DNA of 12,227 nucleotides, from positions 1 to 12,227 of IMG/VR virus record IMGVR_UViG_2671180903_000014; one strand, written 5' to 3'. The position numbers and the translations under genes were made by a program. The notes under the pieces were generated by a model. That model saw only the letters and a program-made list of their open reading frames with translations. It was not told where the DNA came from and did no database searches. Source of the DNA: a virus. Lineage: Duplodnaviria; Heunggongvirae; Uroviricota; Caudoviricetes. Below, piece after piece: positions 2,240 to 12,227 of this stretch; positions within the stretch are counted from its first letter, which is position 1, and each line of letters opens with the position of its first letter.

Positions 2240-2277
2240 CAAAGCTCAAAAATGAGCTTTGGAACAATATCAACAAG

Positions 2278-2559
2278 TTACCGCCGTAACCGCTCCGGCT
2301 TCTTCCAGTGGTACGTAATTTTCTCCGTTTCCCGATACAGTGCCACGCGGCGATTGTAGGCCAGCATTTCAAGAACGCGGATCCGTATGTTGCGCATATC
2401 CACATCATTAAGCTGGATACCATCACGGCGCATCACCTCAGCAACAACACGCGCATAATTTTCGGCTGTCACGCTGTCCGGCTGCGTGGCCTGTTCGTCA
2501 GTCTGCTGGCTGATTCCACCAGCACGGCGGATTAATCCCAGTATTTCGGCTTCTGTCAT
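2278..2559 (-). CDS. Hypothetical 93-aa protein
   Basis: ATG at 2559 with upstream GGGTG; charged, protein-like composition; the overlapping plus-strand ORF looks like antisense. No family recognised. Confidence 0.4.
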   Translation of the reverse strand: MTEAEILGLIRRAGGISQQTDEQATQPDSVTAENYARVVAEVMRRDGIQLNDVDMRNIRIRVLEMLAYNRRVALYRETEKITYHWKKPERLRR

Positions 2560-2592
2560 TGTGCACCCATCGTTCTGATTGTCTGGTGTCGT

Positions 2593-2795
2593 CGGGTCCT
2601 TCCTGGAATTATGGACCCGTTACGGGGCGGCGACCTCGCGGTTTTTATCTGTTTATGAAAATTTTCCGGCAAAAGTCAGATCCGTTCTTCTTCTCTGTAA
2701 CAGACTGTTTAACAATGAAAATATTAAAAAAAGAAAGGATCTGACACGAGGCATTTTAGCCAGAAAATGCCATTATCAGATCCTTTCTCATTTTT
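2593..2795 (+). other. Lambda-type cos site 'cos-A' (cosQ, cosN, cosB) in plus orientation
   Basis: GGGTCCTTCC..GTTACG|GGGCGGCGACCT|CGCGGTTTTT..TTATGAAAATTTTCCGG..CCGTTCTTCTTC closely follows the lambda right-end/left-end junction as recalled; the 12-nt cohesive-end sequence is at 2625-2636. Three R-site-like repeats GATCC(G/T)TTCT follow (2681-2695 plus, 2730-2745 inverted, 2777-2789 plus), with an A/T-rich IHF-like stretch between the first two. Confidence 0.8.
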
Positions 2796-2815
2796 GTTCA
2801 ATAATTGCGCGTCTG

Positions 2816-3358
2816 TTACTCGCCTTTCTTCTGTAGCAACTTTTCCGGTACGTTTCCGGTTGTTTCTTTCAAGTAATCAGCCAGTATCTGTGGGAGGTTG
2901 TCGGCAACTCTGGCACTGGCATTACAGGCTTTAACCACTTCCCTTTTAAGCCTATCCAGCATGGCGGGGGTAATCTGTGGGAAGCTCCTTTGCATAGTAA
3001 GCGGGAGGCTGTCCATGATTGATGAAATCTGACTCGCCAGCTTTGAAAGCGCGTACAGGCAAAACTCAGTATCAATCACGTCACCGCGATCGCGCTCGTT
3101 TTTAAGTTCCTGCGCCTCCGCCTGTGCTGTCAGTAATCTGATCCTGACTCGTAAGAGTTCATCATCATCAATATCGCCTTTGTCGTTTGTAAGCTGGCTA
3201 ATTGCATTGTTAACCCTATTGTCTATCACGCTGGCAACATCATAAAACGCCTCACGGCCTTTACGTTCAACGGGAGTCACTCCCCACTTGTCGAACGCTG
3301 TCGCACTTACACGGCAGCTTTTCGCCATGTTTTTTTTGTTCATCAGGTGCGATTTCAT
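2816..3358 (-). CDS. Terminase small subunit, lambda Nu1-like
   Basis: Residues LLTAQAEAQELKNERDRGDVIDTEFCLYALSKLASQISSIMDSLPLTMQRSFP align with lambda Nu1 (LTRAQADAQELKNARDSAEVVETAFCTFVLSRIAGEIASILDGLPLSVQRRFP); N-terminus NKK..W..G..PV matches the Nu1 DNA-binding region. Start may be ATG 3358 or ATG 3343. Confidence 0.85.
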   Translation of the reverse strand: MKSHLMNKKNMAKSCRVSATAFDKWGVTPVERKGREAFYDVASVIDNRVNNAISQLTNDKGDIDDDELLRVRIRLLTAQAEAQELKNERDRGDVIDTEFCLYALSKLASQISSIMDSLPLTMQRSFPQITPAMLDRLKREVVKACNASARVADNLPQILADYLKETTGNVPEKLLQKKGE

Positions 3359-3399
3359 TAATACACCAACTTAATTACTGCTTCAGGTTGGTGTATTGT

Positions 3400-3534
3400 T
3401 TGCATCTTTCCCTTTTTATTCATAAAGATAGATCAAACAACGAAACCACCACCCCCCCCCTGAAAAGGCTCATAAATAGCGAAAAACCGCTAGGTCGCCG
3501 CCCCGTAACGGGCCATAATTCCAGGAAGGACCCG
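3400..3534 (-). other. Second lambda-type cos site 'cos-B' (cosQ, cosN, degenerate cosB) in minus orientation
   Basis: Minus strand reads GGGTCCTTCCTGGAATTATGGCCCGTTACG|GGGCGGCGACCT|AGCGGTTTTTCGCTATTTATGA and then diverges, including a G9 run; cohesive-end sequence at 3492-3503. The 53-bp stretch 3482-3534 is an inverted repeat of 2593-2646 with one mismatch and one 1-bp indel. Confidence 0.75.
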
Positions 3535-3535
3535 T

Positions 3536-3557
3536 AAAAAAGCCGGATTTCTCCGGC
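3536..3557 (-). terminator. Rho-independent terminator after the 137-aa gene
   Basis: Minus strand GCCGGAGAAATCCGGC hairpin followed by TTTTTT; 6 bp past the stop of the 137-aa ORF. Confidence 0.7.
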
Positions 3558-3563
3558 CTTGTC

Positions 3564-3977
3564 TCAGATGGTTTTCAGTATGCGATCGATGTCGCCGTCA
3601 TCGCCCTGGTTTCTGCCATCGTATGCCATGCCAGCTGATACGGCTTGCGGGCTGTGCATGTCCATAAAGTTTTCAAAGGCTGCGGTAAGTTCCGGCGCAA
3701 CCTTCGGACGTTCCTGCTCTATGGTCATGCTAAGGATGCTTTTAGCCGTACCAACATCGATACAAGGCACGTTTGCCATTGCACGCAACAGCGGCTGATA
3801 GTCTTTATGCTCATGAAGCGCCATAATCGCATCAGCGCGCGGCTTGTCCTGCTCTTCCAGTTTGTTTAGTTGATATACGGCCTCATAGGTTGATAAACCT
3901 CTGTCAGCCATTGCCCGCGCTTCGACTTTAAATTTACTCGCCAGCGGTAGCGTCATGATGCTTTCATTCGTTGCCAT
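3564..3977 (-). CDS. Hypothetical 137-aa acidic protein, last gene of the capsid operon
   Basis: Strong RBS (AGGGGGA) before ATG 3977; 12 bp after the gpD-like stop; followed by a terminator. No family recognised; not lambda FI or W by recalled sequence. Confidence 0.55.
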   Translation of the reverse strand: MATNESIMTLPLASKFKVEARAMADRGLSTYEAVYQLNKLEEQDKPRADAIMALHEHKDYQPLLRAMANVPCIDVGTAKSILSMTIEQERPKVAPELTAAFENFMDMHSPQAVSAGMAYDGRNQGDDGDIDRILKTI

Positions 3978-3989
3978 CGTTCCCCCTGC

Positions 3990-4325
3990 TTATCGGGCCA
4001 GCGGCTGAACGGATACGCCGGAACCCGCAAAGGCGGCGCATTTTTTCGCATCGGTGTCGACGCTCTCAGGCCAGTTAACGGCGGCAATATTGAATATCCC
4101 CGTCTTGTAACACTGTGCTGATTTCTGCTTTGACGTGCCCACAGGGTACGAGGTCAGATAAACAGCCTTGCCAGATTCCTGACCATCCCACGGCTTAAAC
4201 TCGCCATTGTCTGCCAGCATCAGCGGGGTAAATTCCTGAATAACGCCAGCATCAGCGGCAAAATGTACCAACGTCGTGGATACCTGCTGACTGCCTGCAA
4301 ATAACTCAATGTATGGAGTGTCCAT
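3990..4325 (-). CDS. Head decoration protein, lambda gpD family
   Basis: 111 aa; TPLML, WDG, YKTGIF, WPE and AFAG motifs align with lambda gpD (TPLML..WDG..YKSGTF..WPE..AFAG); RBS GGGGGGA. Confidence 0.85.
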   Translation of the reverse strand: MDTPYIELFAGSQQVSTTLVHFAADAGVIQEFTPLMLADNGEFKPWDGQESGKAVYLTSYPVGTSKQKSAQCYKTGIFNIAAVNWPESVDTDAKKCAAFAGSGVSVQPLAR

Positions 4326-4337
4326 AGAATCCCCCCG

Positions 4338-5393
4338 TTAACCAATTTTGACGGTAACAAATTTGCGAATATCTGCCGGTACCGGCTGCGGTGCACTGTG
4401 TGTCTGCACGTACTCAATCGCCGGATCGCCGTCCTCAATCCAGTTTTTCGGGTAAAACATGTTTTGTGTTGCGCCCGTTCTTACCGCTTCCTGATCCATT
4501 ATCGCACCATAGGCCACCAGCCCTTTATTGTTGGTGTTACCCAGGACCAGCAAATCAGGCTCAAGGAAATATTTTTCGGTACCATCGCTGTCAGTGTATT
4601 TGCCGGAATAGACGATAAGGGCCAGATCACCAAGATAGCCTTTAAAGCTCACCACTTCGCCCAGGTTTTTACAGGCCAGTTCGGCGGCGGATTCTGAACC
4701 ACGGGAAAGATCGTACAGCTCACGGAATTTTTTAAAGCTGCCTAATGTGCGCCATACCTCAGCGCCCATAATCATGACGTTTGCGGGGCAACCAGCCTGA
4801 TCAGCATAAAGCTCGATGTCATAGATTGGGTCGTGCATGTCTTTATCCTGCTCGGACCATTTTTTACCCTTGGCCTGCTCTATGATGCAGTTTTCCGGTA
4901 TTTTCCAGTCGATTTCATAGCGTTCTATGCCTTCGCCCTCAATGATGTTTTTTCCGGTCGTTACCGCATTCACCGCCAGCCATTCCACGCGTGCCTTAAT
5001 GGCGTTTATCTGGCGGCGCATGTTGCCAGTAATCAGGCGCATACGGCGATAGGTAGGGTCGTTAAGCTGTGCCGGATCTTCTCCAGCCATGCGCATGATG
5101 GTTTTCGTTGGATCGATTTCGTGCTTTGGCTTCATGTAGCCAGGTTTGATTGTGCTGGTTTCGTACCCTTTATCGCGCTGAACCTGGCTACCCACCATAG
5201 GCGAACAAAACGCCGACATGGTGACTTCTTCAATGTCCAGGGTATCCAGCATGATGTTTTGCGTGCTGAATGTCGCCACGTTCGGGAAAAACAGCGTGGT
5301 AAACAGAGGGCTGAATTTAAAATCCGCAATATCCCCGCGATTCAGGTACATGAAAAGCTGGTTAGTGTTAAGTGCCGTTGCTTTGCCTGCCAT
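4338..5393 (-). CDS. Major capsid protein, lambda gpE family
   Basis: 351 aa; collinear with lambda gpE (FKF.PLF..LFF, PGY.KPKHE, DP.YRR.R, RDK..DP..DIE.YA, YKG..GD.A.VYSG, VLGNT, YPKNW, GDPA.E); RBS GGGGGTGA. Confidence 0.9.
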   Translation of the reverse strand: MAGKATALNTNQLFMYLNRGDIADFKFSPLFTTLFFPNVATFSTQNIMLDTLDIEEVTMSAFCSPMVGSQVQRDKGYETSTIKPGYMKPKHEIDPTKTIMRMAGEDPAQLNDPTYRRMRLITGNMRRQINAIKARVEWLAVNAVTTGKNIIEGEGIERYEIDWKIPENCIIEQAKGKKWSEQDKDMHDPIYDIELYADQAGCPANVMIMGAEVWRTLGSFKKFRELYDLSRGSESAAELACKNLGEVVSFKGYLGDLALIVYSGKYTDSDGTEKYFLEPDLLVLGNTNNKGLVAYGAIMDQEAVRTGATQNMFYPKNWIEDGDPAIEYVQTHSAPQPVPADIRKFVTVKIG

Positions 5394-5599
5394 TATTCAC
5401 CCCCATAATTTTTATGCATCCCAAGCGCCGCAAGTAAATAAGAGCGTACAAGTGAACCTATCGACGGCTCCGGCGTCATCAGCGGATCCAGTCCAGCCGC
5501 AACGCCAGCTTCATAGTTTTTTTTGTGGCGCTGCTTGAGCACCTCCACGATTTCGGGGCTTATGTACACCGAAACACCGCCTTTTTTCTCTTCAGCCAT
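5393..5599 (-). CDS. Hypothetical 68-aa protein, first gene of the capsid operon
   Basis: ATG at 5599 preceded by AAGAGGAA; its stop overlaps the capsid start codon (TAATG), suggesting translational coupling. No family recognised. Confidence 0.45.
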   Translation of the reverse strand: MAEEKKGGVSVYISPEIVEVLKQRHKKNYEAGVAAGLDPLMTPEPSIGSLVRSYLLAALGMHKNYGGE

Positions 5600-5633
5600 A
5601 GTAAGAAATTCCTCTTCGACTAAAAAAATCATA

Positions 5634-5684
5634 ACTGGATGTTTATCCAGTCCTGATTATAATCAGAATTGCATTTTATGCAAT
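5634..5684 (-). promoter_or_regulatory. Sigma70-like promoter overlapped by three adjacent palindromic operators
   Basis: Minus-strand -35 TTGCAT (5683-5678), 16-bp spacer, -10 TATAAT (5661-5656). Palindromes: ACTGGAT-gttt-ATCCAGT (5634-5651), CTGATTATAATCAG (5653-5666), ATTGCAT-ttt-ATGCAAT (5668-5684). Confidence 0.55.
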
Positions 5685-5764
5685 GATATTGAGTTATGTT
5701 GCAAATTATGAAATGATTATCCCGATCACGAACGCCAGTGCATCCAAAAACCTCATATGCAAAA

Positions 5765-5830
5765 GCCCGATAAGAACCCTCTGACCTTATCGGGCTTTTT
5801 TTGGGCGCAAAAAAGCCGGATTGCTCCGGC
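5765..5830. terminator. Tandem terminators between the 74-aa gene and the capsid promoter
   Basis: Hairpin GCCCGATAAG..CTTATCGGGC with T7 on the plus side and A4 on the other (5765-5802), then minus-strand GCCGGAGCAATCCGGC plus T6 (5809-5830). Confidence 0.65.
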
Positions 5831-5850
5831 TATGTGTGCTGTGTGCTGGC

Positions 5851-6075
5851 TCAGTCTCTGATCTCTTTCAGAAATTCTATCAATGCATCTATCTGTTCAG
5901 GATTTACCGCCAGCATTTCACCGGATAGAGCACATCTCACAAAACCATGCTGATCCTTTTCAATCAGTGCGCCCGTCTCCAGGAATGCGCGGTAATCATT
6001 GATGCTCATCGTCTCCATGTTGTCAGCATGGTATTTATCACGCTGTTTTAATATCTCATCAAATTTCATCGGCAT
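5851..6075 (-). CDS. Hypothetical 74-aa protein, monocistronic between terminators
   Basis: ATG at 6075 preceded by AGAGGAAAAA; terminators on both sides. No family recognised; only one Cys, so not an Ogr/Delta zinc finger. Confidence 0.5.
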   Translation of the reverse strand: MPMKFDEILKQRDKYHADNMETMSINDYRAFLETGALIEKDQHGFVRCALSGEMLAVNPEQIDALIEFLKEIRD

Positions 6076-6171
6076 TGTTTTTTTCCTCTGTTGTGTCTGT
6101 TTGTTTCAGATAGTAACTATGCCTGACCGTGACGAAAACCCGGTAATGCGCCATACCGTTTCAACTGGTGC

Positions 6172-6194
6172 AAAAAAAGCCGGATTTCTCCGGC
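6172..6194 (-). terminator. Rho-independent terminator after the PerC-like gene
   Basis: Minus strand GCCGGAGAAATCCGGC followed by T7; near-identical to the terminators at 3536-3557 and 5809-5830. Confidence 0.7.
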
Positions 6195-6201
6195 TGTTTG
6201 A

Positions 6202-6474
6202 TTAGCTGTCCTGGTAATTGCGCCATATTTCATCACCAGCACCATCTATACCCATTTCGGCATAAGTGCGATCGACTGCCTTTTTCAGGTCTCCGAAATT
6301 ATCCGGCGGCTCCGGTGCCCTCTGTGCCTTCCTTGAACATTCCAGCCGTCGCATCGTGATGTGATGCCGTTCCTTGTCTGTCTCCACCAGCTGCATGACT
6401 TCACCCCATCGCGCCGCCGCCCTCCGGTAAAAGCCTTTCGCCTCCAGTTCCTCCGCTATGCGGTCATGTACCAT
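6202..6474 (-). CDS. Small PerC-family-like regulator (about 90 aa)
   Basis: Start taken at ATG 6474 (MVHDRIAEELEAKGFYRRAAARWGEVM), 11 nt after the SSB stop with GGGGGTG as RBS; the A..LE..G.YRRAA.RW motif resembles PerC-family proteins from memory. The longer 130-aa ORF call would overlap SSB. Confidence 0.45.
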   Translation of the reverse strand: MVHDRIAEELEAKGFYRRAAARWGEVMQLVETDKERHHITMRRLECSRKAQRAPEPPDNFGDLKKAVDRTYAEMGIDGAGDEIWRNYQDS

Positions 6475-6484
6475 CGTCACCCCC

Positions 6485-6895
6485 TCAGAACGAAATATCA
6501 TCACCGTAAGAGTCATCGCCTCCCGCTGGTGGCTGATTACCCTGTGTGCCTGTGGTTTTGCGTCTGTTCCCGCCTGGACGTGCCGCGCGGGCACTGATTA
6601 CGCTGTCTGCGATAACCTGCCAGCCCTGCCGCGTTTCTCCGTTCTGTCCGGTCCACTGGCTTACCTGCATCGTGCCGGATACGCTGGCAACATCGCCTTT
6701 TTGATGTTTAGCCAGGAAGTCGGCCTGTTTGCCAAATGCGATGACCGATAACCATAACGTCGCCTGTCCGTCCTGTGCCTGGCTGCATGGCAAAGATACC
6801 GCCATACGCGCCAGCGTCATCGGTGTGCCCTTGCTGGTCTGTTTTACCTGCGGGTCGTCCACCAGCCGCCCGTAAGCGGCTATCTGTGCCGTCAT
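6485..6895 (-). CDS. Single-stranded DNA-binding protein, SSB-like
   Basis: 136 aa; OB-fold-like N-terminal region, Gly/Pro/Gln-rich linker and acidic C-terminal tip GDDISF (compare E. coli SSB DDDIPF). Confidence 0.65.
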   Translation of the reverse strand: MTAQIAAYGRLVDDPQVKQTSKGTPMTLARMAVSLPCSQAQDGQATLWLSVIAFGKQADFLAKHQKGDVASVSGTMQVSQWTGQNGETRQGWQVIADSVISARAARPGGNRRKTTGTQGNQPPAGGDDSYGDDISF

Positions 6896-7143
6896 AATTC
6901 CACCTCTCCGGTTTTAACGTTGATGGTTGTTACCTGTTCCGCTTCGGCAATCTCCCGTTCTGTCAGCGTGGCAAAGTTTGCCGCCGCCGTGGTCATGAAT
7001 GCGCTTATCAGGTCGGGATGTTCCTTCGCGTATCCTTCCCGCGTGTGGCGGTCTATCGTTCTGATTGCCACCTTTAAGGTGTGCTCAGTCATGTCTAACG
7101 CTTTATATTTTGGCTCTGTTCTGTCTCTGCGTTTTTGGGTCAT
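6892..7143 (-). CDS. Hypothetical small protein between the origin and ssb
   Basis: The longest ORF begins at a GTG (7173) inside the iteron array; ATG 7143 or ATG 7092 are more plausible starts. Stop overlaps the ssb start (ATGA). Confidence 0.35.
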   Translation of the reverse strand: MTQKRRDRTEPKYKALDMTEHTLKVAIRTIDRHTREGYAKEHPDLISAFMTTAAANFATLTEREIAEAEQVTTINVKTGEVEL

Positions 7144-7149
7144 TTCTCG

Positions 7150-7350
7150 CAACCTCTCACTTTTTCGCCTCACTTTTTCAAGCGTCTCACTTCGTCGCAG
7201 TTGGGATTTTCGGTTTTTCTATGTGTGTGTTTCATAAGTATTTTTTTACCCCTCACTTTTGAGGATGTATACAGGTCGAAAAGTGAGGGAGAGCGGGCTA
7301 ATTTTGGCCCTCTTTCTATCCCCCTCGCTTTTGCTCCTCACTTTTATAGC
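7150..7350. repeat. Iteron array with a central A/T-rich stretch; candidate replication origin
   Basis: Seven copies of CCTCAC(T/G)TTT (7156, 7169, 7186, 7250, 7323, 7337 direct; 7279 inverted) flanking an A/T-rich stretch at 7201-7248, immediately 3' of the rep gene. Confidence 0.6.
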
Positions 7351-8743
7351 GGCGCTACATCATCCCCATCGATACGAATAACCCCATCTTTTTCCAGCTT
7401 GTACAGCCAGCGCCGGAAGTTTTTCATTTCATACCCCAGCTTTTTCATGTCATCACGTAACAGCGGGATCGTGCACTTGTCGCCGTTCTGTGTGCGTGAA
7501 CGGATGCACCCCCATAGCGCGGTATGGTTTTCCGTCTTGTTCCCTGCCTCCTCGATGCGCTCCAGTTCAACAGGAGGGCGCGGATCATCCACCACCACCA
7601 GCGACGTGATTAATTCACCGTCAGCGTCGGTAAAAAGCTCCACCACGCGTAAGTCATATGCGGCTTCTTTGAGTTCCTCCGCGTCCTTCATTTTGGTGCA
7701 TGAGATAACCAGCGCTTCGCTTCCTGCGTCCTCCCTGCGTATCCGGTATTCAGCATCCAGCGAAGCACGAAATGCACTGGAACCGCGCGCGCCTTTCGTC
7801 TCATCCTTGCCGGAATGGTGAACCACCAGCACCGTGGCCCCTGTGCGTCGTTTCAGTTCGTCACAACCACGGATAAACGCCCCATATCACGGGAATCATT
7901 TTCATCATTCCCACCAAAGCAACGCGCCAGCGTATCCAGAATAATCATGCGTACAGGTTTACCCGTTTCCCGCTCCACCTGACGGGCAGCGATAACCATT
8001 TCATCAACATCAAGCGGGGCAGCCGGAAAGATGGGGCGGTTTACCAGATACAGATTTTTCACCTGCTCATCGTGCACAACCTCCCAGGCTTTTACACGAC
8101 GCGGAACACCTATACCGCCTTCACCAACCACATAGAGAACCGCACCATGTGCAACCCTGCGGCCTCCCCACTGGCGACCAGTGGCAACATGGCACGCCCA
8201 CGATCCGGCAAGGAATGATTTATAGGACCCGCTAGCCCCGTATATGCTGCATAGCGATACCGCCGGAATAATCCCCTTAACCACGTAATCCAGTTGCGTG
8301 TCGTATCCGGTAGATCCAACGCTCATCGGTAGCGTGGTTTTTCGCTGGTGGTTTTTTTCTTCCGCCGGCTCTTTCCCGCGCACCCGTTCCAGGTATTCGC
8401 GCCAGTTCTCCCGCATATGGCTGTGCATCCCTTCGGGGTAATAATTCGCATCAGTTACACCCGCCGCCGCCAGCTTGTGCGCAATGGCATTAATATTTGA
8501 TGGCCTGATGTGGCCTGCCTTGTACAGCCGGACACAATAGCGCCCCTCGTCGATGATTCTCAGGTCTGCCAGTTCATCCAGTTGATCATCAGCCAGCACA
8601 ACGGGAGGCACATTATCGCCAGCCAGTCGCCCGTCCTGTTCCTGCCACTGTTTCGCATGTGCCCAGGCATCACTACCCGCAAAAATAATGACTTCGGTCA
8701 TCTTGTCGTAAGGCTGTTTTTTTAAGTTCGGTGCGCTTTTCAT
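7344..8743 (-). pseudogene. RepA-like AAA ATPase (RecA-fold replication helicase) split by a frameshift
   Basis: The upstream ORF (8743-7853) ends ..ILDTLARCFGGNDENDSRDMG; the downstream ORF continues in another frame with AFIRGCDELKRRTGATVLVVHHSGKDETKG. Joined, they give the typical DEN..M......L....G..VL.VHH..K motif. The frames meet in the C4/G4 run at 7880-7883; one extra G would restore a ~470-aa protein. Confidence 0.75.
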
Positions 8744-8761
8744 TTCTTGCCCCTGAATCCG

Positions 8762-9208
8762 TTAAAATCTGGCCTGAACTGCCGGAGGCGTAGGCCATTC
8801 AATATCTGGCGCACTGGAGGTATCAACCAGCTCCAGTGCATCCAGATAATCCAGCCACAAATTATATTGCGCCAGTTCCTCACCTTTCAGACGACCAATA
8901 GCGGCTTTACCGGGCCATTGCTTACTGTTCATGTATTCGTTGGCCTGGTTAATTAGTAGCTGTCTTTCTGATTCAGTAATTTCAATAAGCTCTTCATGCG
9001 TGGGTGGAGGAATATCTGCCCACGCAGGCAGCCCATCATCTCCGGCAATACGGATTTTTCCTTGTGGCGGTTCAGCCATAAACTCACTGATAATATTTTG
9101 ATTTACTTCCTTAGCGTCTGATAAATCCCATCCCTCTGATTTATATTTATCAATCATATCCACAGGGAAAAAAGCATTATGCCTTGCGCTATAAACATAT
9201 TCGTTCAT
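8762..9208 (-). CDS. Tail fibre assembly protein (Tfa)
   Basis: N-terminus MNEYVYSARHNAFFP and C-terminus ..VDTSSAPDIEWPTPP match Tfa proteins (lambda Tfa ends ..VDTSTAPDIEWP); RBS AGGGTGA before ATG 9208. The longest ORF starts at a GTG (9217). Confidence 0.85.
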   Translation of the reverse strand: MNEYVYSARHNAFFPVDMIDKYKSEGWDLSDAKEVNQNIISEFMAEPPQGKIRIAGDDGLPAWADIPPPTHEELIEITESERQLLINQANEYMNSKQWPGKAAIGRLKGEELAQYNLWLDYLDALELVDTSSAPDIEWPTPPAVQARF

Positions 9209-9228
9209 ATAAATCACCCTGAATAAAA

Positions 9229-9642
9229 TTACTCACCAACAGCCCACCAACTGTAATTCATCGATACCGTGTCGCTGGTTGATGACGTTCTGTAAGCAGA
9301 ATTAAAGCCGGTTAACGTTGGGCCTTCTGCAGTCATCACGAACCCTCGCCCAGCGCCTAAAGGCGCACCGCCATCACCAGAATGAGTAAGCATGGCGCAG
9401 TCCGCTTTTTTGGGGAAAGGGATGCTGAATGTAATTCTCATTGTTTGCGTCGATAATGTCGGCGTAACCGCACCACGACCATATTGCAGGATTTTCCCGT
9501 TGGGTAATTTCATCCATCCATCACCACTGGCAAAAGAGGCCATGTCCGGTATCTGATTTTCCCCTGTCCCCACATCCCGTTTTGCCGCTTCTCCCAAACC
9601 AACGTTTATGAAAATGCAGAAATAACGAGCAAATGGCATCAT
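9229..9642 (-). pseudogene. Tail-fibre C-terminal variable segment without its constant N-terminal part (alternate cassette of an invertible segment)
   Basis: Lies between the crossover site and tfa, reading away from pin, as for the alternate Sv' cassette of the Mu G segment and the e14 P segment; no tail-fibre N-terminal domain upstream. Confidence 0.5.
9589..9614. other. Candidate Pin crossover site (pix-like)
   Basis: TTCTCCCAAACCAACGTTTATGAAAA matches the recalled hixL site TTCTTGAAAACCAAGGTTTTTGATAA at 20 of 26 positions; sits just upstream of pin inside the tail-fibre fragment. Confidence 0.55.
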
Positions 9643-9668
9643 TCCTGCTTTTGTCAGGGGGATCTACC

Positions 9669-10223
9669 ATGCTTATTGGCTATGTACGCGTATCAACAAA
9701 TGACCAGAACACAGATCTACAACGTAATGCGCTGAACTGTGCAGGATGCGAGCTGATTTTTGAAGACAAGATAAGCGGTACAAAGTCCGAAAGGCCGGGA
9801 CTGAAAAAACTGCTCAGGACATTATCGGCAGGTGACACGCTGGTGGTCTGGAAACTGGACCGGCTGGGGCGCAGTATGCGGCATCTTGTCGTGCTGGTGG
9901 AGGAGTTGCGCGAACGAGGCATCAACTTTCGTAGTCTGACGGATTCAATTGATACCAGTACCCCAATGGGGCGCTTTTTCTTTCATGTGATGGGTGCCCT
10001 GGCTGAAATGGAGCGTGAACTGATTGTTGAAAGAACAAAAGCTGGACTGGAAGCTGCTCGCGCACAGGGACGAATTGGTGGACGTCGTCCCAAACTTACA
10101 CCAGAACAATGGGAACAGGCCGGACGATTAATTGCATCAGGAGTTCCTCGCCAGAAGGTGGCGATTATCTATGATGTTGGTGTGTCAACTTTGTATAAGA
10201 GGTTTCCTGCAGGGGATAAATAA
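9669..10223 (+). CDS. pin: Serine DNA invertase Pin (Hin/Gin/Cin family)
   Basis: MLIGYVRVSTNDQNTDLQRNAL..VVWKLDRLGRS..GINFRSLTDSIDTS.PMGRFFFHVMGALAEMERELI..GRIGGR with C-terminal HTH; RBS AGGGGGA before ATG 9669. The listed ORF start at 9633 is an upstream extension. Confidence 0.92.
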   Translation: MLIGYVRVSTNDQNTDLQRNALNCAGCELIFEDKISGTKSERPGLKKLLRTLSAGDTLVVWKLDRLGRSMRHLVVLVEELRERGINFRSLTDSIDTSTPMGRFFFHVMGALAEMERELIVERTKAGLEAARAQGRIGGRRPKLTPEQWEQAGRLIASGVPRQKVAIIYDVGVSTLYKRFPAGDK

Positions 10224-10329
10224 AGTTAAAGACACTTTGTGTACAAAAGAAAGTAAAACAACAGCAACTTGTTGCAATTTTATCAATAAAAGTAGTATTG
10301 TCGTGAAAAATTGATTAAAGATTAATATT

Positions 10330-11163
10330 ATGCATGTTTTTGATAATAATGGAATTGAACTGAAAGCTGAGTGTTCGATAGGTGAAGAGGATGGTGTTTA
10401 TGGTCTAATCCTTGAGTCGTGGGGGCCGGGTGACAGAAACAAAGATTACAATATCGCTCTTGATTATATCATTGAACGGTTGGTTGATTCTGGTGTATCC
10501 CAAGTCGTAGTATATCTGGCGTCATCATCAGTCAGAAAACATATGCATTCTTTGGATGAAAGAAAAATCCATCCTGGTGAATATTTTACTTTGATTGGTA
10601 ATAGCCCCCGCGAGATACGCTTGAAGATGTGTGGTTATCAGGCTTATTTTAGTCGTACGGGGAGAAAGGAAATTCCTTCCGGCAATAGAACGAAACGAAT
10701 ATTGATAAATGTTCCAGGTATTTATAGTGACAGTTTTTGGGCGTCTATAATACGTGGAGAACTATCAGAGCTTTCACAGCCTACAGATGATGAATCGCTT
10801 CTGAATATGAGGGTTAGTAAATTAATTAAGAAAACGTTGGGTCAACCCGAGGGCTCCAGGAAACCAGTTGAGGTAGAAAGACTACAAAAAGTTTATGTCC
10901 GAGACCCGATGGTAAAAGCTTGGATTTTACAGCAAAGTAAAGGTATATGTGAAAACTGTGGTAAAAATGCTCCGTTTTATTTAAATGATGGAAACCCATA
11001 TTTGGAAGTGCATCATGTAATTCCCCTGTCTTCAGGTGGTGCTGATACAACAGATAACTGTGTTGCCCTTTGTCCGAATTGTCATAGAGAATTGCACTAT
11101 AGTAAAAATGCAAAAGAACTAATCGAGATGCTTTACGTTAATATAAACCGATTACAGAAATAA
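10330..11163 (+). CDS. mcrA: Type IV modification-dependent restriction endonuclease McrA (HNH)
   Basis: 277 aa; matches e14 McrA from memory, with C-terminal HNH motif HHVIPLSSGG..NCVALCPNCH; A/T-rich context typical of acquired DNA. Confidence 0.92.
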   Translation: MHVFDNNGIELKAECSIGEEDGVYGLILESWGPGDRNKDYNIALDYIIERLVDSGVSQVVVYLASSSVRKHMHSLDERKIHPGEYFTLIGNSPREIRLKMCGYQAYFSRTGRKEIPSGNRTKRILINVPGIYSDSFWASIIRGELSELSQPTDDESLLNMRVSKLIKKTLGQPEGSRKPVEVERLQKVYVRDPMVKAWILQQSKGICENCGKNAPFYLNDGNPYLEVHHVIPLSSGGADTTDNCVALCPNCHRELHYSKNAKELIEMLYVNINRLQK

Positions 11164-11397
11164 AATTGTTTATTAAAGTCACATTTAAGACGTAATACCC
11201 TACAGGGTAAAAATTTTCTCTGATCTTAACTTCTGCAAATGTTAACTGCTATTTTTATGCTAAAAATGGTTATCAAAACTCAAAAACACATGTTTATAAT
11301 CAATGAGTTATAGAAATGCTAAGGGCTAATGAGTTATATGCAAATTAGTAAAATTATGTTGCTATCTCAAATAGTTACGATTTAGTCATCTAACTAA

Positions 11398-11562
11398 TGC
11401 TGCGCCATATGGGCTGGACTGAAGCCGCAGACCTGATTGTTAAAGGTATGGAAGGCGCAATCAACGCCAAGACCGTAACCTATGACTTCGAACGTCTGAT
11501 GGAAGGCGCTAAACTGCTGAAATGTTCAGAGTTTGGTGACGCGATCATCAAAAATATGTAAT
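11398..11562 (+). pseudogene. icdC: Displaced 3' end of icd (isocitrate dehydrogenase), marking the e14-type attR
   Basis: In-frame translation [53 protein letters not shown] is the ICD C-terminus; no upstream icd body. Confidence 0.85.
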
Positions 11563-11584
11563 TACCACATGTGTTAAATATTAT

Positions 11585-11613
11585 AACGGGCGTATAACAC
11601 GCCCGTTGTTTTT
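11585..11613 (+). terminator. Rho-independent terminator after the icd remnant
   Basis: AACGGGCGT-ataac-ACGCCCGTT hairpin followed by GTTTTT, 23 bp past the stop. Confidence 0.6.
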
Positions 11614-11822
11614 ATAAATATGTTAACCGTTATAAAATAACGTATCAAAAGTCAAGTGAACACATTTCAAATATCAATTTGATCGTATTGGTCTGGTGAT
11701 TATTTATGGGGAGCAATAAAAAGACAGTATTAATCATCCATAGGGATAGTCTCTGCACTTTTATTTCCATTATGCTAATGCCTTACTGAATTATGAAGCA
11801 TTTTTTAAGCTCCCAACTTTAG

Positions 11823-12227
11823 CTAGATTAATGGTTTATTATTTTCTACATCTTCAATATATAAAAGCGTATTATCAATGGCGTAGTAACTGCGTTTGTT
11901 ATGATTAACATCAGTAACCCACCGGAAAACGCCAGCGCCTGCCAGTGTTGAACAGTATTCCCGAAATGTAGATTTTCCGCGAATATGAAGCAATGCGGCC
12001 TCTTTTATTTTAGCTGGGTTCTTGGTCGTACTAACTTTTAACAGGTTCCTGGTTCCTCTTAATAACAAAACCGTGTCATCGTGAGTAATAATTCTGATGT
12101 TATCCGTAGCCAGATAATAAATGTAATGTGCAATACGGTGATGTTTTAATTCTGAATAAAACCAGGAGAAGTTTTGCTCTTTTCTCACTTGCTCAAACAT
12201 CTTTTGAAAAACAACGACCTGATCCAT
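11823..12227 (-). CDS. DUF1398-family protein (YcgX/YbcV/YdfO-like)
   Basis: 134 aa; C-terminal AGVFRWVTD..YYAIDNTLLYIE resembles the prophage-flanking DUF1398 family from memory. Position next to icdC fits K-12 ycgX, but iraM is not seen between them. Confidence 0.55.
   Translation of the reverse strand: MDQVVVFQKMFEQVRKEQNFSWFYSELKHHRIAHYIYYLATDNIRIITHDDTVLLLRGTRNLLKVSTTKNPAKIKEAALLHIRGKSTFREYCSTLAGAGVFRWVTDVNHNKRSYYAIDNTLLYIEDVENNKPLI

What the first reader, a model, noticed from the sequence alone, without database searches (positions are those of the whole stretch)
5634..5832. Capsid operon promoter packed with three palindromic operators and shielded by tandem terminators
A near-consensus promoter is covered by three different perfect dyads (18, 14 and 17 bp) across the -35, -10 and start region, and two terminators upstream block read-through. 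This implies tight repression until a specific signal, as expected for a late operon that should fire only when a helper is active.
Basis: seen in the sequence. Interest (0 to 1): 0.55.

Follow-up and report, generated by a model that had tools for sequence, protein, structure and literature searches.

The report
SOS-locked promoter of a satellite capsid operon
This is the conserved control region in front of the capsid genes of an E. coli phage satellite (a PICI); one of its three palindromes looks like a binding site for LexA, the host DNA-damage repressor, so the operon is probably switched on by the SOS response, as in the staphylococcal satellites.

Summary
Three abutting dyads with 7-bp arms (5634-5651, 5653-5666, 5668-5684) cover a promoter on the minus strand, TTGCAT-16-TATAAT. 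Two hairpins lie upstream. The element is an EcCICFT073-type PICI. The promoter drives a 68-aa gene, a lambda-E-like capsid gene, a lambda-D-like decoration gene and a 137-aa gene.

The start-site dyad is a LexA (SOS) box, CTGGAT-N4-ATCCAG. Its arms are identical to the box upstream of ruvAB in K-12. It is kept in 48 of 49 distinct protein-anchored E. coli upstream sequences and in Salmonella. One lineage changed ATCCAG to ATACAG, which weakens the hairpin but improves the LexA match.

The -35 dyad is older. A motif near ATCATTGCA-N5-TGCAATGAT sits at about -27, with a second copy at about -57, in all five lineages examined. Two of those lineages lack the LexA box. What binds it is unknown. 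The operon's first product has weak ribbon-helix-helix signals and is a candidate.

The -10 "dyad" is mostly the TATAAT plus conserved TGAT/ATCA flanks, and its outer pair does not covary.

Terminator 1 belongs to the upstream gene. Terminator 2 belongs to the capsid module, but its long T-run is on the antisense strand.

No binding or expression was tested. The verdict is a new member of a known kind, comparable to the LexA-controlled SaPI operon I.

The parts
5809..5831 (-). T1: intrinsic terminator of the upstream 74-aa gene (stem AGCCGGA/TCCGGCT, loop GCAA, then a T-run)
   Evidence: Listed by the terminator scan. It travels with the 74-aa gene into other islands, including the capsid-forming PICI of EDL933 (one search hits H67-H79). 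A near-identical hairpin lies at 6178-6195.
5761..5802 (.). T2: 14-bp-arm hairpin at the upstream edge of the capsid module. It has T7 on the plus (antisense) strand and only TTTT on the minus (sense) strand.
   Evidence: Inverted repeat I1. The stems are invariant and the loop varies in E. coli variants. Hairpins with the same polarity but unrelated stems occur at the same place in Salmonella, Edwardsiella tarda and a metagenomic lineage. Homology between island variants starts here.
5695..5717 (-). Distal operator-like element O2 (ATCATTTCATAATTTGCAACATA), centred about -57. It is a degenerate copy of the -35 dyad, 30 bp upstream of it.
   Evidence: Direct repeat D1. Nearly invariant in 59 variants. 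Present in all five lineages, and a good dyad in Edwardsiella. Found only once in a complete island.
5668..5684 (-). It covers the -35 hexamer TTGCAT (5683-5678). The flanks extend it towards ATCATTGCA-N5-TGCAATGAT (5665-5687).
   Evidence: TTGC...ATGCAA is invariant in five lineages. It is a perfect palindrome with 9-bp arms in the metagenomic loci L235, L237 and L238. It occurs twice, 32 bp apart, in Edwardsiella.
5653..5666 (-). The 14-bp palindrome CTGATTATAATCAG, which contains the -10 hexamer TATAAT (minus strand 5661-5656)
   Evidence: TGATTAWAAT is invariant in five lineages. The outer pair shows every combination, so it does not covary, and rare changes in an arm are not compensated.
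5633..5652 (.). LexA (SOS) box GACTGGATAAACATCCAGTT, about -3 to +17 relative to the predicted start (5651-5648)
   Evidence: Heterology index 5.8/7.2 on a matrix of 23 E. coli boxes. It is the only site of 13 or better in the window, and 2 of 200 shuffles reach it. The arms are identical to the ruvAB box found in MG1655. Kept in 48 of 49 protein-anchored variants and in Salmonella. The ATACAG variants improve the score.
5600..5632 (-). 5' leader: the conserved ATGATTTTTT stretch and the Shine-Dalgarno sequence GAGGA (5614-5610)
   Evidence: Sequence. AAGAGGAA and the T-run are conserved in all lineages.
5393..5599 (-). First gene of the operon: 68 aa, PHROG 3255, always directly downstream of this block. 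It is a possible ribbon-helix-helix DNA-binding protein, and so a candidate binder of O1 and O2.

Best explanation
The region is the control block of the sigma-70 promoter (TTGCAT-16-TATAAT, minus strand) that drives the capsid module of an EcCICFT073-type phage-inducible chromosomal island. That module is a 68-aa protein, a lambda-E-like capsid protein, a lambda-D-like decoration protein and a 137-aa protein.

I propose two independent locks on the promoter.

Lock 1 (sequence shown, function inferred). Host LexA binds the box CTGGAT-N4-ATCCAG, which lies from just after the -10 across the transcription start, and blocks RNA polymerase. DNA damage triggers RecA-dependent self-cleavage of LexA. 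The same signal induces lambdoid helper prophages, so the satellite's capsid genes would come on together with the helper.

Lock 2 (conservation shown; function and binder inferred). A dimeric DNA-binding protein recognises a dyad close to ATCATTGCA-N5-TGCAATGAT, centred at about -27 over the -35 hexamer, and a second copy about 30 bp upstream. This element is older than the LexA box. It is present in E. coli, Salmonella, Edwardsiella and a fourth, metagenomic lineage. My preferred candidate is the operon's own first product, acting as a ribbon-helix-helix autorepressor, but that is a guess.

The 14-bp palindrome is largely the -10 hexamer plus conserved ATGAT/ATCAT flanks shared with lock 2.

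T1 ends the upstream gene. T2 marks the start of the capsid module and terminates mainly antisense transcription.
For: Identity of the element:
- Pfam and annotation and matches in 773 of 5,426 complete E. coli genomes.
- The literature on EcCICFT073 (PMC6092414, PMC6739421).

LexA box:
- Heterology index 5.8/7.2, inside the range of the matrix's own sites (1.0-9.6).
- It is the only such site in 12.2 kb, and 2 of 200 shuffles reach it anywhere.
- Its arms are identical to the box found 52-67 nt upstream of ruvA in MG1655.
- It starts 4 nt after the -10.
- In 80 protein-anchored IMG/VR loci, 48 of 49 distinct upstream sequences hold a box (index 4.3-8.4) at the same distance from the ATG. The exception has a 1-nt insertion.
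- Salmonella keeps it although its flanks cannot be aligned.
- Variation is confined to the central 4 nt and the outer 2 nt.
- ATCCAG to ATACAG lowers the leader hairpin from -9.8 to -4.7 kcal/mol and improves the index to 4.3.

Operators O1 and O2:
- Invariant cores in five lineages.
- A perfect palindrome with 9-bp arms in L235, L237 and L238.
- Two good copies in Edwardsiella.
- ATGAT/ATCAT pentamers occur 3-6 times per 121 nt against about 0.5 expected (the motif was chosen after seeing the data).

The block as a whole is more conserved than the coding DNA.

First gene as a DNA binder. Its most conserved stretch is GGV(S/T)VYISP, at the position of the putative DNA-reading strand.
Against: - No binding, transcription-start or expression data exist for this promoter. 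The one SOS RNA-seq table I could read concerns a strain whose island at this site carries a different capsid module.
- The LexA matrix was built from boxes recalled from memory, and only the ruvAB box was checked against sequence.
- The box is absent in two of five lineages, so it is not essential to the promoter.
- By chance a 5-Mb genome should hold several sites of this score.
- The -35 matches only 3/6 and the promoter scan did not list the promoter.
- The ribbon-helix-helix evidence is all below threshold.
- A site at -57 could equally serve an activator.
- During helper infection without SOS the operon would stay shut under lock 1, which fits poorly with a role in interference. However, the known interference gene rpp lies 205 bp beyond the last gene and may have its own promoter.
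Confidence: 0.6

Rival explanations
1. Three different operators are bound by three element- or helper-encoded regulators (the PerC-like, 74-aa and 93-aa proteins), so that the operon fires only when a specific helper is active.
For: The dyad cluster is not a chance event and is conserved. AlpA-dependent, helper-specific induction is known for the early genes of this type of island (PMC6092414).
Against: The start-site dyad matches the host LexA operator. PerC-like and 74-aa genes are missing upstream of many islands with the same promoter, such as L004, L005, L009, the Salmonella loci and Edwardsiella. None of the dyads recurs elsewhere in a full island or in lambda. No phage record holds a similar promoter.
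Confidence: 0.15
2. The O1/O2 elements are sites for an activator, for example the island's AlpA or a helper late-gene activator. On this view the promoter is weak on its own, and LexA only adds a veto.
For: The -35 matches only 3/6 and the spacer is 16 nt. Two same-oriented copies lie about 30 bp apart, at roughly -27 and -57. AlpA is the known positive regulator in these islands.
Against: A site centred at -27 lies between and over the core promoter elements, which is the usual place for a repressor. The -10 is a perfect TATAAT. There is no significant O1-like site in the alpA promoter region of a complete island. The only match there has 3 mismatches, with 1.2 such matches expected by chance.
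Confidence: 0.25
3. The start-site dyad acts as RNA. It would be either a 5' stem-loop that stabilises the message, or a leader attenuator (hairpin plus U-run) that is read through only after antitermination, like a lambda PR'/Q late promoter.
For: The terminator scan lists 5652-5633 plus the T-run as terminator-like. The hairpin folds at -9.8 kcal/mol. A stretch of the lambda PR' spacer (TTGAATAAAAT) resembles TTGCATAAAAT.
Against: The U-run starts 5 nt after the stem. The ATACAG variants halve the stem's stability with no compensating change. Two lineages have no hairpin but keep the rest of the leader. The lambda resemblance sits at a different position relative to -35 and -10. There is no phage match.
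Confidence: 0.08
4. Part of the conservation reflects a short divergent (plus-strand) transcript that starts in the promoter block and ends at T2. That would make the block a bidirectional promoter with a small-RNA gene.
For: T2-type hairpins carry their long T-run on the antisense strand in four lineages: T7, TTTTCTTTT, T8 and T8-T9. The -10 region is palindromic, so TATAAT reads on both strands. T1 and T2 form a convergent terminator pair.
Against: No conserved antisense -35/-10 pair was found. The 5720-5760 stretch differs between variants. There is no Rfam match even at E up to 1. Many intrinsic terminators are simply bidirectional.
Confidence: 0.12

Closest known systems
SaPI operon I, the packaging and capsid-morphogenesis operon of Staphylococcus aureus pathogenicity islands, repressed by LexA (Ubeda et al. 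2007, Mol Microbiol 65:41; cited in PMC6092414 and PMC6739421)
   Same: Both are phage satellites whose late (capsid or packaging) module has its own promoter carrying a host LexA site. In both, SOS induction of the helper prophage would switch on the satellite's late genes at the same time.
   Different: The phylum, the LexA consensus and the genes are unrelated. Here the box is only predicted. It is combined with an older second operator system and it is missing in some lineages. No published description for Gram-negative PICIs was found in the searchable library.
The E. coli ruvAB SOS box (CTGGATATCTATCCAG)
   Same: The arms CTGGAT/ATCCAG and the 4-nt A/T-rich centre are identical in form. 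This was verified in MG1655 upstream of ruvA.
   Different: The central 4 nt differ (AAAC or GAAC against ATCT). That the ruvAB site binds LexA is from my own knowledge of the literature, not from a tool result.
Colicin promoters held by two repressors ('double locking' by LexA plus IscR or AsnC; Butala et al. 2012; own knowledge)
   Same: A strong promoter has a LexA box at the start site and a second, independent operator just upstream. This is proposed to delay or tighten expression of a costly gene set.
   Different: The second operator here has a different sequence and an unknown binder. Nothing has been tested.
Ribbon-helix-helix autorepressors encoded as the first gene of the operon they control (Arc, Mnt, CopG; PutA recognises GTTGCA; TraM; own knowledge)
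   Same: A small first-gene product with a strand-helix-helix topology sits next to a promoter that overlaps dyads with TGCA cores 9 bp apart and (A/G)TTGCA half-sites.
   Different: All fold and family signals are below threshold, and there is a 13-residue insert between the helices. No DNA binding has been shown.

Membership tests
LexA (SOS) operator of enterobacteria | A 16-bp core CTG-N10-CAG with dyad symmetry and an A/T-rich centre, inside a 20-bp site | tested here: met
   GACTGGATAAACATCCAGTT at 5652-5633
LexA (SOS) operator of enterobacteria | A score within the range of experimentally established boxes | tested here: met
   Heterology index 5.8/7.2 against 1.0-9.6 for the 23 boxes of the matrix. 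It is still 6.4 when the two CTGG-type boxes are left out. The matrix was recalled from memory. The ruvAB box was verified in sequence.
LexA (SOS) operator of enterobacteria | Overlaps the core promoter or the transcription start of the regulated gene | tested here: inconclusive
   It lies 4 nt downstream of a perfect, conserved TATAAT. The start site is predicted, not mapped.
LexA (SOS) operator of enterobacteria | Kept in orthologous promoters, with substitutions the consensus tolerates | tested here: met
   48 of 49 E. coli variants and Salmonella keep it, and the ATACAG variants improve the score. It is absent in Edwardsiella and in one metagenomic lineage.
LexA (SOS) operator of enterobacteria | LexA binding in vitro and SOS-dependent derepression in vivo | not testable with these tools
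   No data were found. The RNA-seq table of PMC5931665 covers an island with another capsid module.
Sigma-70 promoter | -35 and -10 hexamers close to consensus, with a 16-18-nt spacer | tested here: inconclusive
   -10 is 6/6, -35 is 3/6 (TTG kept) and the spacer is 16. It falls below the scan's threshold and was not listed. TTGC and TAWAAT at a fixed spacing are invariant in five lineages.
Intrinsic (Rho-independent) terminator | A G+C-rich hairpin directly followed by a U-run on the transcribed strand | tested here: met
   T1 on the minus strand
Intrinsic (Rho-independent) terminator | The same feature, applied to T2 in the direction of the capsid operon | tested here: inconclusive
   Only TTTT follows the stem on the minus strand, while T7 follows it on the plus strand. 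The same polarity is seen in four lineages.
Phage-inducible chromosomal island (EcCICFT073 type) | Integrase, AlpA, primase/helicase, then a short late module with lambda-E/D-like genes and a Nu1-like Rpp, all on one strand | tested here: met
   The complete relative L001 has all of these. The window itself has the late module, the SSB, PerC-like and RepA-family genes, but lacks int and alpA.
Ribbon-helix-helix DNA-binding proteins (first gene, 68 aa) | A significant match to a family profile, or to the fold | tested here: inconclusive
Lambda PR'-type Q-dependent late promoter | A Q-binding element between -35 and -10, a promoter-proximal pause element, a downstream terminator, and similarity to helper late promoters | tested here: not met
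   The 11-nt resemblance to the PR' spacer is out of register. No phage record matches. The leader U-run is 5 nt from the stem.

The most novel reading that the evidence does not exclude
The block is a three-input switch found in a large family of enterobacterial satellites. It would combine an ancestral autoregulatory operator pair read by the operon's own 68-aa ribbon-helix-helix protein, a LexA box added later in the E. coli/Salmonella branch to couple capsid-gene expression to prophage induction, and a divergent short RNA that ends at the antisense terminator T2.
Probability: 0.12. Interest if true: 0.65.

Novelty: new member of a known kind. Interest (0 to 1): 0.5.

Why it matters
How Gram-negative PICIs time their late genes (capsid, decoration and packaging redirection) is not described. 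Only the helper-induced activator AlpA is known, and it acts on the early genes.

A LexA box on the capsid-module promoter gives a simple, directly testable answer. It would also be a case of convergence with the staphylococcal islands.

The module is common. It matches in 773 of 5,426 complete E. coli genomes, including CFT073-type strains, Nissle 1917 and many O157, O145 and O26 strains. SOS-inducing antibiotics could therefore switch on satellite capsid genes in many clinical and probiotic strains.

The second, older operator defines a regulator-operator pair that has not been characterised.

Tried and rejected
- Lambda PR'/Q mimicry. The resemblance between TTGAATAAAAT and TTGCATAAAAT is out of register. 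blastn of the block against 50,697 phage records gave no real match.
- Copies of the dyads elsewhere. There are none beyond chance in the window, in a complete island or in lambda.
- Rfam at E up to 1 found nothing in the region. There are no tRNAs.
- Two genome-contig scans, with the capsid protein and with the 68-aa alignment, returned no relatives.
- SOS transcriptome of O157 (PMC5931665 supplement). The island next to phoQ in Sakai is the capsid-forming PICI with HK97-type genes, so the data do not bear on this promoter. Its equivalent region has no LexA box.
- A hexamer-repeat idea for the window copy alone was not significant. The pentamer ATGAT/ATCAT is enriched across lineages, but I picked it after seeing the data.
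- Covariation in the 14-bp dyad: none found.
- A 16-codon open reading frame between T2 and O2 is not conserved in all variants and has no Shine-Dalgarno sequence, so I dropped it.
- I considered host factors with similar motifs from memory only: CytR octamers (GTTGCATT), Fur, IHF, FNR, lambda CII and NsrR. None fits well enough to claim.

Full report
**What the window is.** Bases 1-1461 encode PhoQ. From about 2270 to 8765, on the minus strand, lies a phage-inducible chromosomal island of the EcCICFT073/EcCIEDL933 kind. Its genes, in order of transcription, are:
- a RepA-family helicase, an SSB (6485-6895) and a PerC-like protein (6202-6474);
- a 74-aa gene (5851-6075);
- a 68-aa gene (5393-5599), a lambda-E-like major capsid gene (4338-5393), a lambda-D-like decoration gene (3990-4325) and a 137-aa gene (3564-3977);
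- a Nu1-like gene (2816-3358), which corresponds to the published Rpp.

This rests, and on PMC6092414 and PMC6739421. The 683 bases around the finding match in 773 of 5,426 complete E. coli genomes. The finding is the intergenic region between the 74-aa gene and the 68-aa gene. The 68-aa gene starts at 5599, behind a GAGGA Shine-Dalgarno sequence.

**The observation.**
- The three dyads are real. They are 5634-5651 (7-bp arms, 4-nt spacer), 5653-5666 (a perfect 14-mer) and 5668-5684 (7-bp arms, 3-nt spacer). Single bases separate them.
- A cluster of three such dyads in 60 bp appeared in 1 of 500 composition-preserving block shuffles.
- On the minus strand the -10 is TATAAT (5661-5656), the -35 is TTGCAT (5683-5678) and the spacer is 16 nt. 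The consensus scan did not list this promoter, because the -35 matches only 3/6.
- T1 (5831-5809) is a canonical terminator for the minus strand.
- T2 (5761-5799) is a strong hairpin. Its T-run is long (T7, 5796-5802) on the plus strand and short (TTTT) on the minus strand.

**Comparative evidence.**
- Ten E. coli variants aligned by BLAST show near-invariance from ATCATTTCATAATTTGCAA to the ATG. Similarity between island types breaks between T2 and T1. T2 therefore belongs to the capsid module and T1 to the 74-aa gene. That 74-aa gene with T1 also sits in the capsid-forming island of EDL933 and Sakai.
- Relatives found through the 68-aa protein extend the comparison to three further groups. 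These are Salmonella, Edwardsiella tarda and an unnamed lineage from gut and food metagenomes. Together with two E. coli protein classes this makes five lineages (alignment A5).
- Between E. coli and Salmonella the block is 77-80% identical. The first gene is 58-62% identical and the capsid gene 70-71%. The 90 nt upstream do not align.
- Among 59 distinct variants, the variable columns fall in four places: the centre of the -35 dyad, between the dyads, in the 3 nt before the start-site dyad, and in its central 4 nt.

**The start-site dyad is a LexA box.**
- GACTGGATAAACATCCAGTT has the CTG-N10-CAG core.
- On a matrix of 23 E. coli SOS boxes, written from memory of Lewis 1994 and Fernandez de Henestrosa 2000, its heterology index is 5.8 (7.2 on the other strand). 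The matrix's own sites span 1.0-9.6.
- No other site in the window scores better than 13.8. Two of 200 shuffles of the whole window reach 5.8 anywhere.
- The arms CTGGAT/ATCCAG with a 4-nt spacer are exactly those of the box upstream of ruvA. I confirmed that box in MG1655, 52-67 nt before the gene.
- The box begins 4 nt after the -10 and would cover about -3 to +17.
- In a set collected through the protein, and so unbiased for the promoter, 48 of 49 distinct upstream sequences carry a box (index 4.3-8.4) at the same distance from the ATG. The exception has a 1-nt insertion.
- Several variants read ATACAG instead of ATCCAG. This lowers the stability of the corresponding RNA hairpin from -9.8 to -4.7 kcal/mol and brings the site closer to the LexA consensus, at index 4.3. 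That argues for selection on LexA binding rather than on an RNA stem or a perfect palindrome.
- Edwardsiella and the metagenomic lineage have no box. The box is therefore an addition in the E. coli/Salmonella branch.

**The -35 dyad is the older element.**
- TTGC...ATGCAA is invariant in all five lineages.
- With its flanks the motif approaches ATCATTGCA-N5-TGCAATGAT. In L235, L237 and L238 it is a perfect palindrome with 9-bp arms.
- A second copy lies 30-32 bp upstream. In E. coli it is degenerate but invariant (5695-5717). In Edwardsiella it is a good dyad, and a further half-site sits at the start.
- The two copies are centred at about -27 and -57.
- In the 14-bp palindrome, TGATTAWAAT is invariant. 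The downstream ATCA arm is kept in four of the five lineages. The outermost pair occurs in every combination, and rare changes in an arm are not compensated. I read the 14-mer as the -10 hexamer plus flanks shared with the neighbouring operator, not as a proven third operator.
- ATGAT/ATCAT pentamers are enriched in every lineage, but I chose that motif after seeing the data.

**Who binds the older operator.**
- None of the dyads recurs in a complete island or in lambda.
- The PerC-like and 74-aa genes are absent upstream of many islands that share the promoter.
- This makes autoregulation by a ribbon-helix-helix protein a reasonable but unproven hypothesis. An activator such as AlpA, or a helper protein, cannot be excluded.

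**The terminators.** A sense terminator (T1 or an equivalent) is followed by a hairpin whose long T-run is on the antisense strand. This arrangement is seen with the E. coli stem, and with unrelated stems in Salmonella and the metagenomic lineage. Edwardsiella has the second hairpin only. The pair therefore looks like convergent terminators. It leaves open a short divergent transcript, for which I found no promoter and no Rfam family.

**Literature.** In the searchable library LexA appears in the papers on Gram-negative PICIs only as a citation of the SaPI operon I work. The EcCICFT073 papers describe AlpA as a helper-induced activator of early genes. They report no phenotype for the capsid and decoration gene deletions. 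I found no study of this promoter.

**Verdict.** The part of the signal that can be read from sequence is the host SOS response, acting through LexA. A second, older operator has an unknown regulator. Everything functional is inferred.

Noticed in passing
window 7344-12227: The island copy in this window is decayed. The RepA-family helicase is split into two reading frames (7344-7832 and 7853-8743). Similarity to intact islands stops at about 8765, inside the DUF4222 gene. After that come a tail-fibre assembly gene, a tail-fibre fragment, a Pin-like invertase (9633-10223), a 277-aa HNH endonuclease (10330-11163) and a DUF1398 gene, which together look like an e14-like remnant. There is no integrase or alpA. 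None of 5,426 complete E. coli genomes holds this junction.
   Followed up: partly
window 5814-5831 and 6178-6195: Nearly the same terminator hairpin (AGCCGGA-N4-TCCGGCT) lies on both sides of the 74-aa gene (5851-6075) and brackets it as an insulated unit. This gene plus T1 is shared with the capsid-forming island of O157:H7 EDL933 and Sakai (Sp7), whose late module is otherwise unrelated and has no LexA box.
   Followed up: partly
L001 15029-15048 and 15140-15159 (complete island of O55:H7, int-alpA intergenic region): Two LexA-like sites lie upstream of alpA: TAGTGTATAAAAAACCAGTA, which lacks the C of CTG, and ATCTGTTCGCATATCCAGTA. The published work reports that alpA induction depends on the helper, not on SOS.
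   Followed up: no
window 11575-11723 (minus) and 11583-11609: There is a weak, sub-threshold Rfam match to the Hfq-binding RNA STnc150 (31 bits, against a gathering score of 60). It sits next to a strong bidirectional terminator hairpin.
   Followed up: no
window 5705-5755 (minus): A 16-codon open reading frame (MRFLDALAFVIGIIIS) lies between T2 and the distal operator. It stays in frame in the Nissle-type variant but not in the O91-type variant, and it has no Shine-Dalgarno sequence. It is probably not a gene.
   Followed up: partly
window 6159-6173: There is one further match with a single mismatch to TTGCA-N5-TGCAA (TTTCAACTGGTGCAA), in the presumed promoter region of the 74-aa gene. About one such match is expected by chance.
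   Followed up: no
window 3359-3563: A 205-bp gap separates the 137-aa gene from the Nu1-like (Rpp) gene. The interference gene may therefore have its own promoter and not be under the control region studied here.
   Followed up: no
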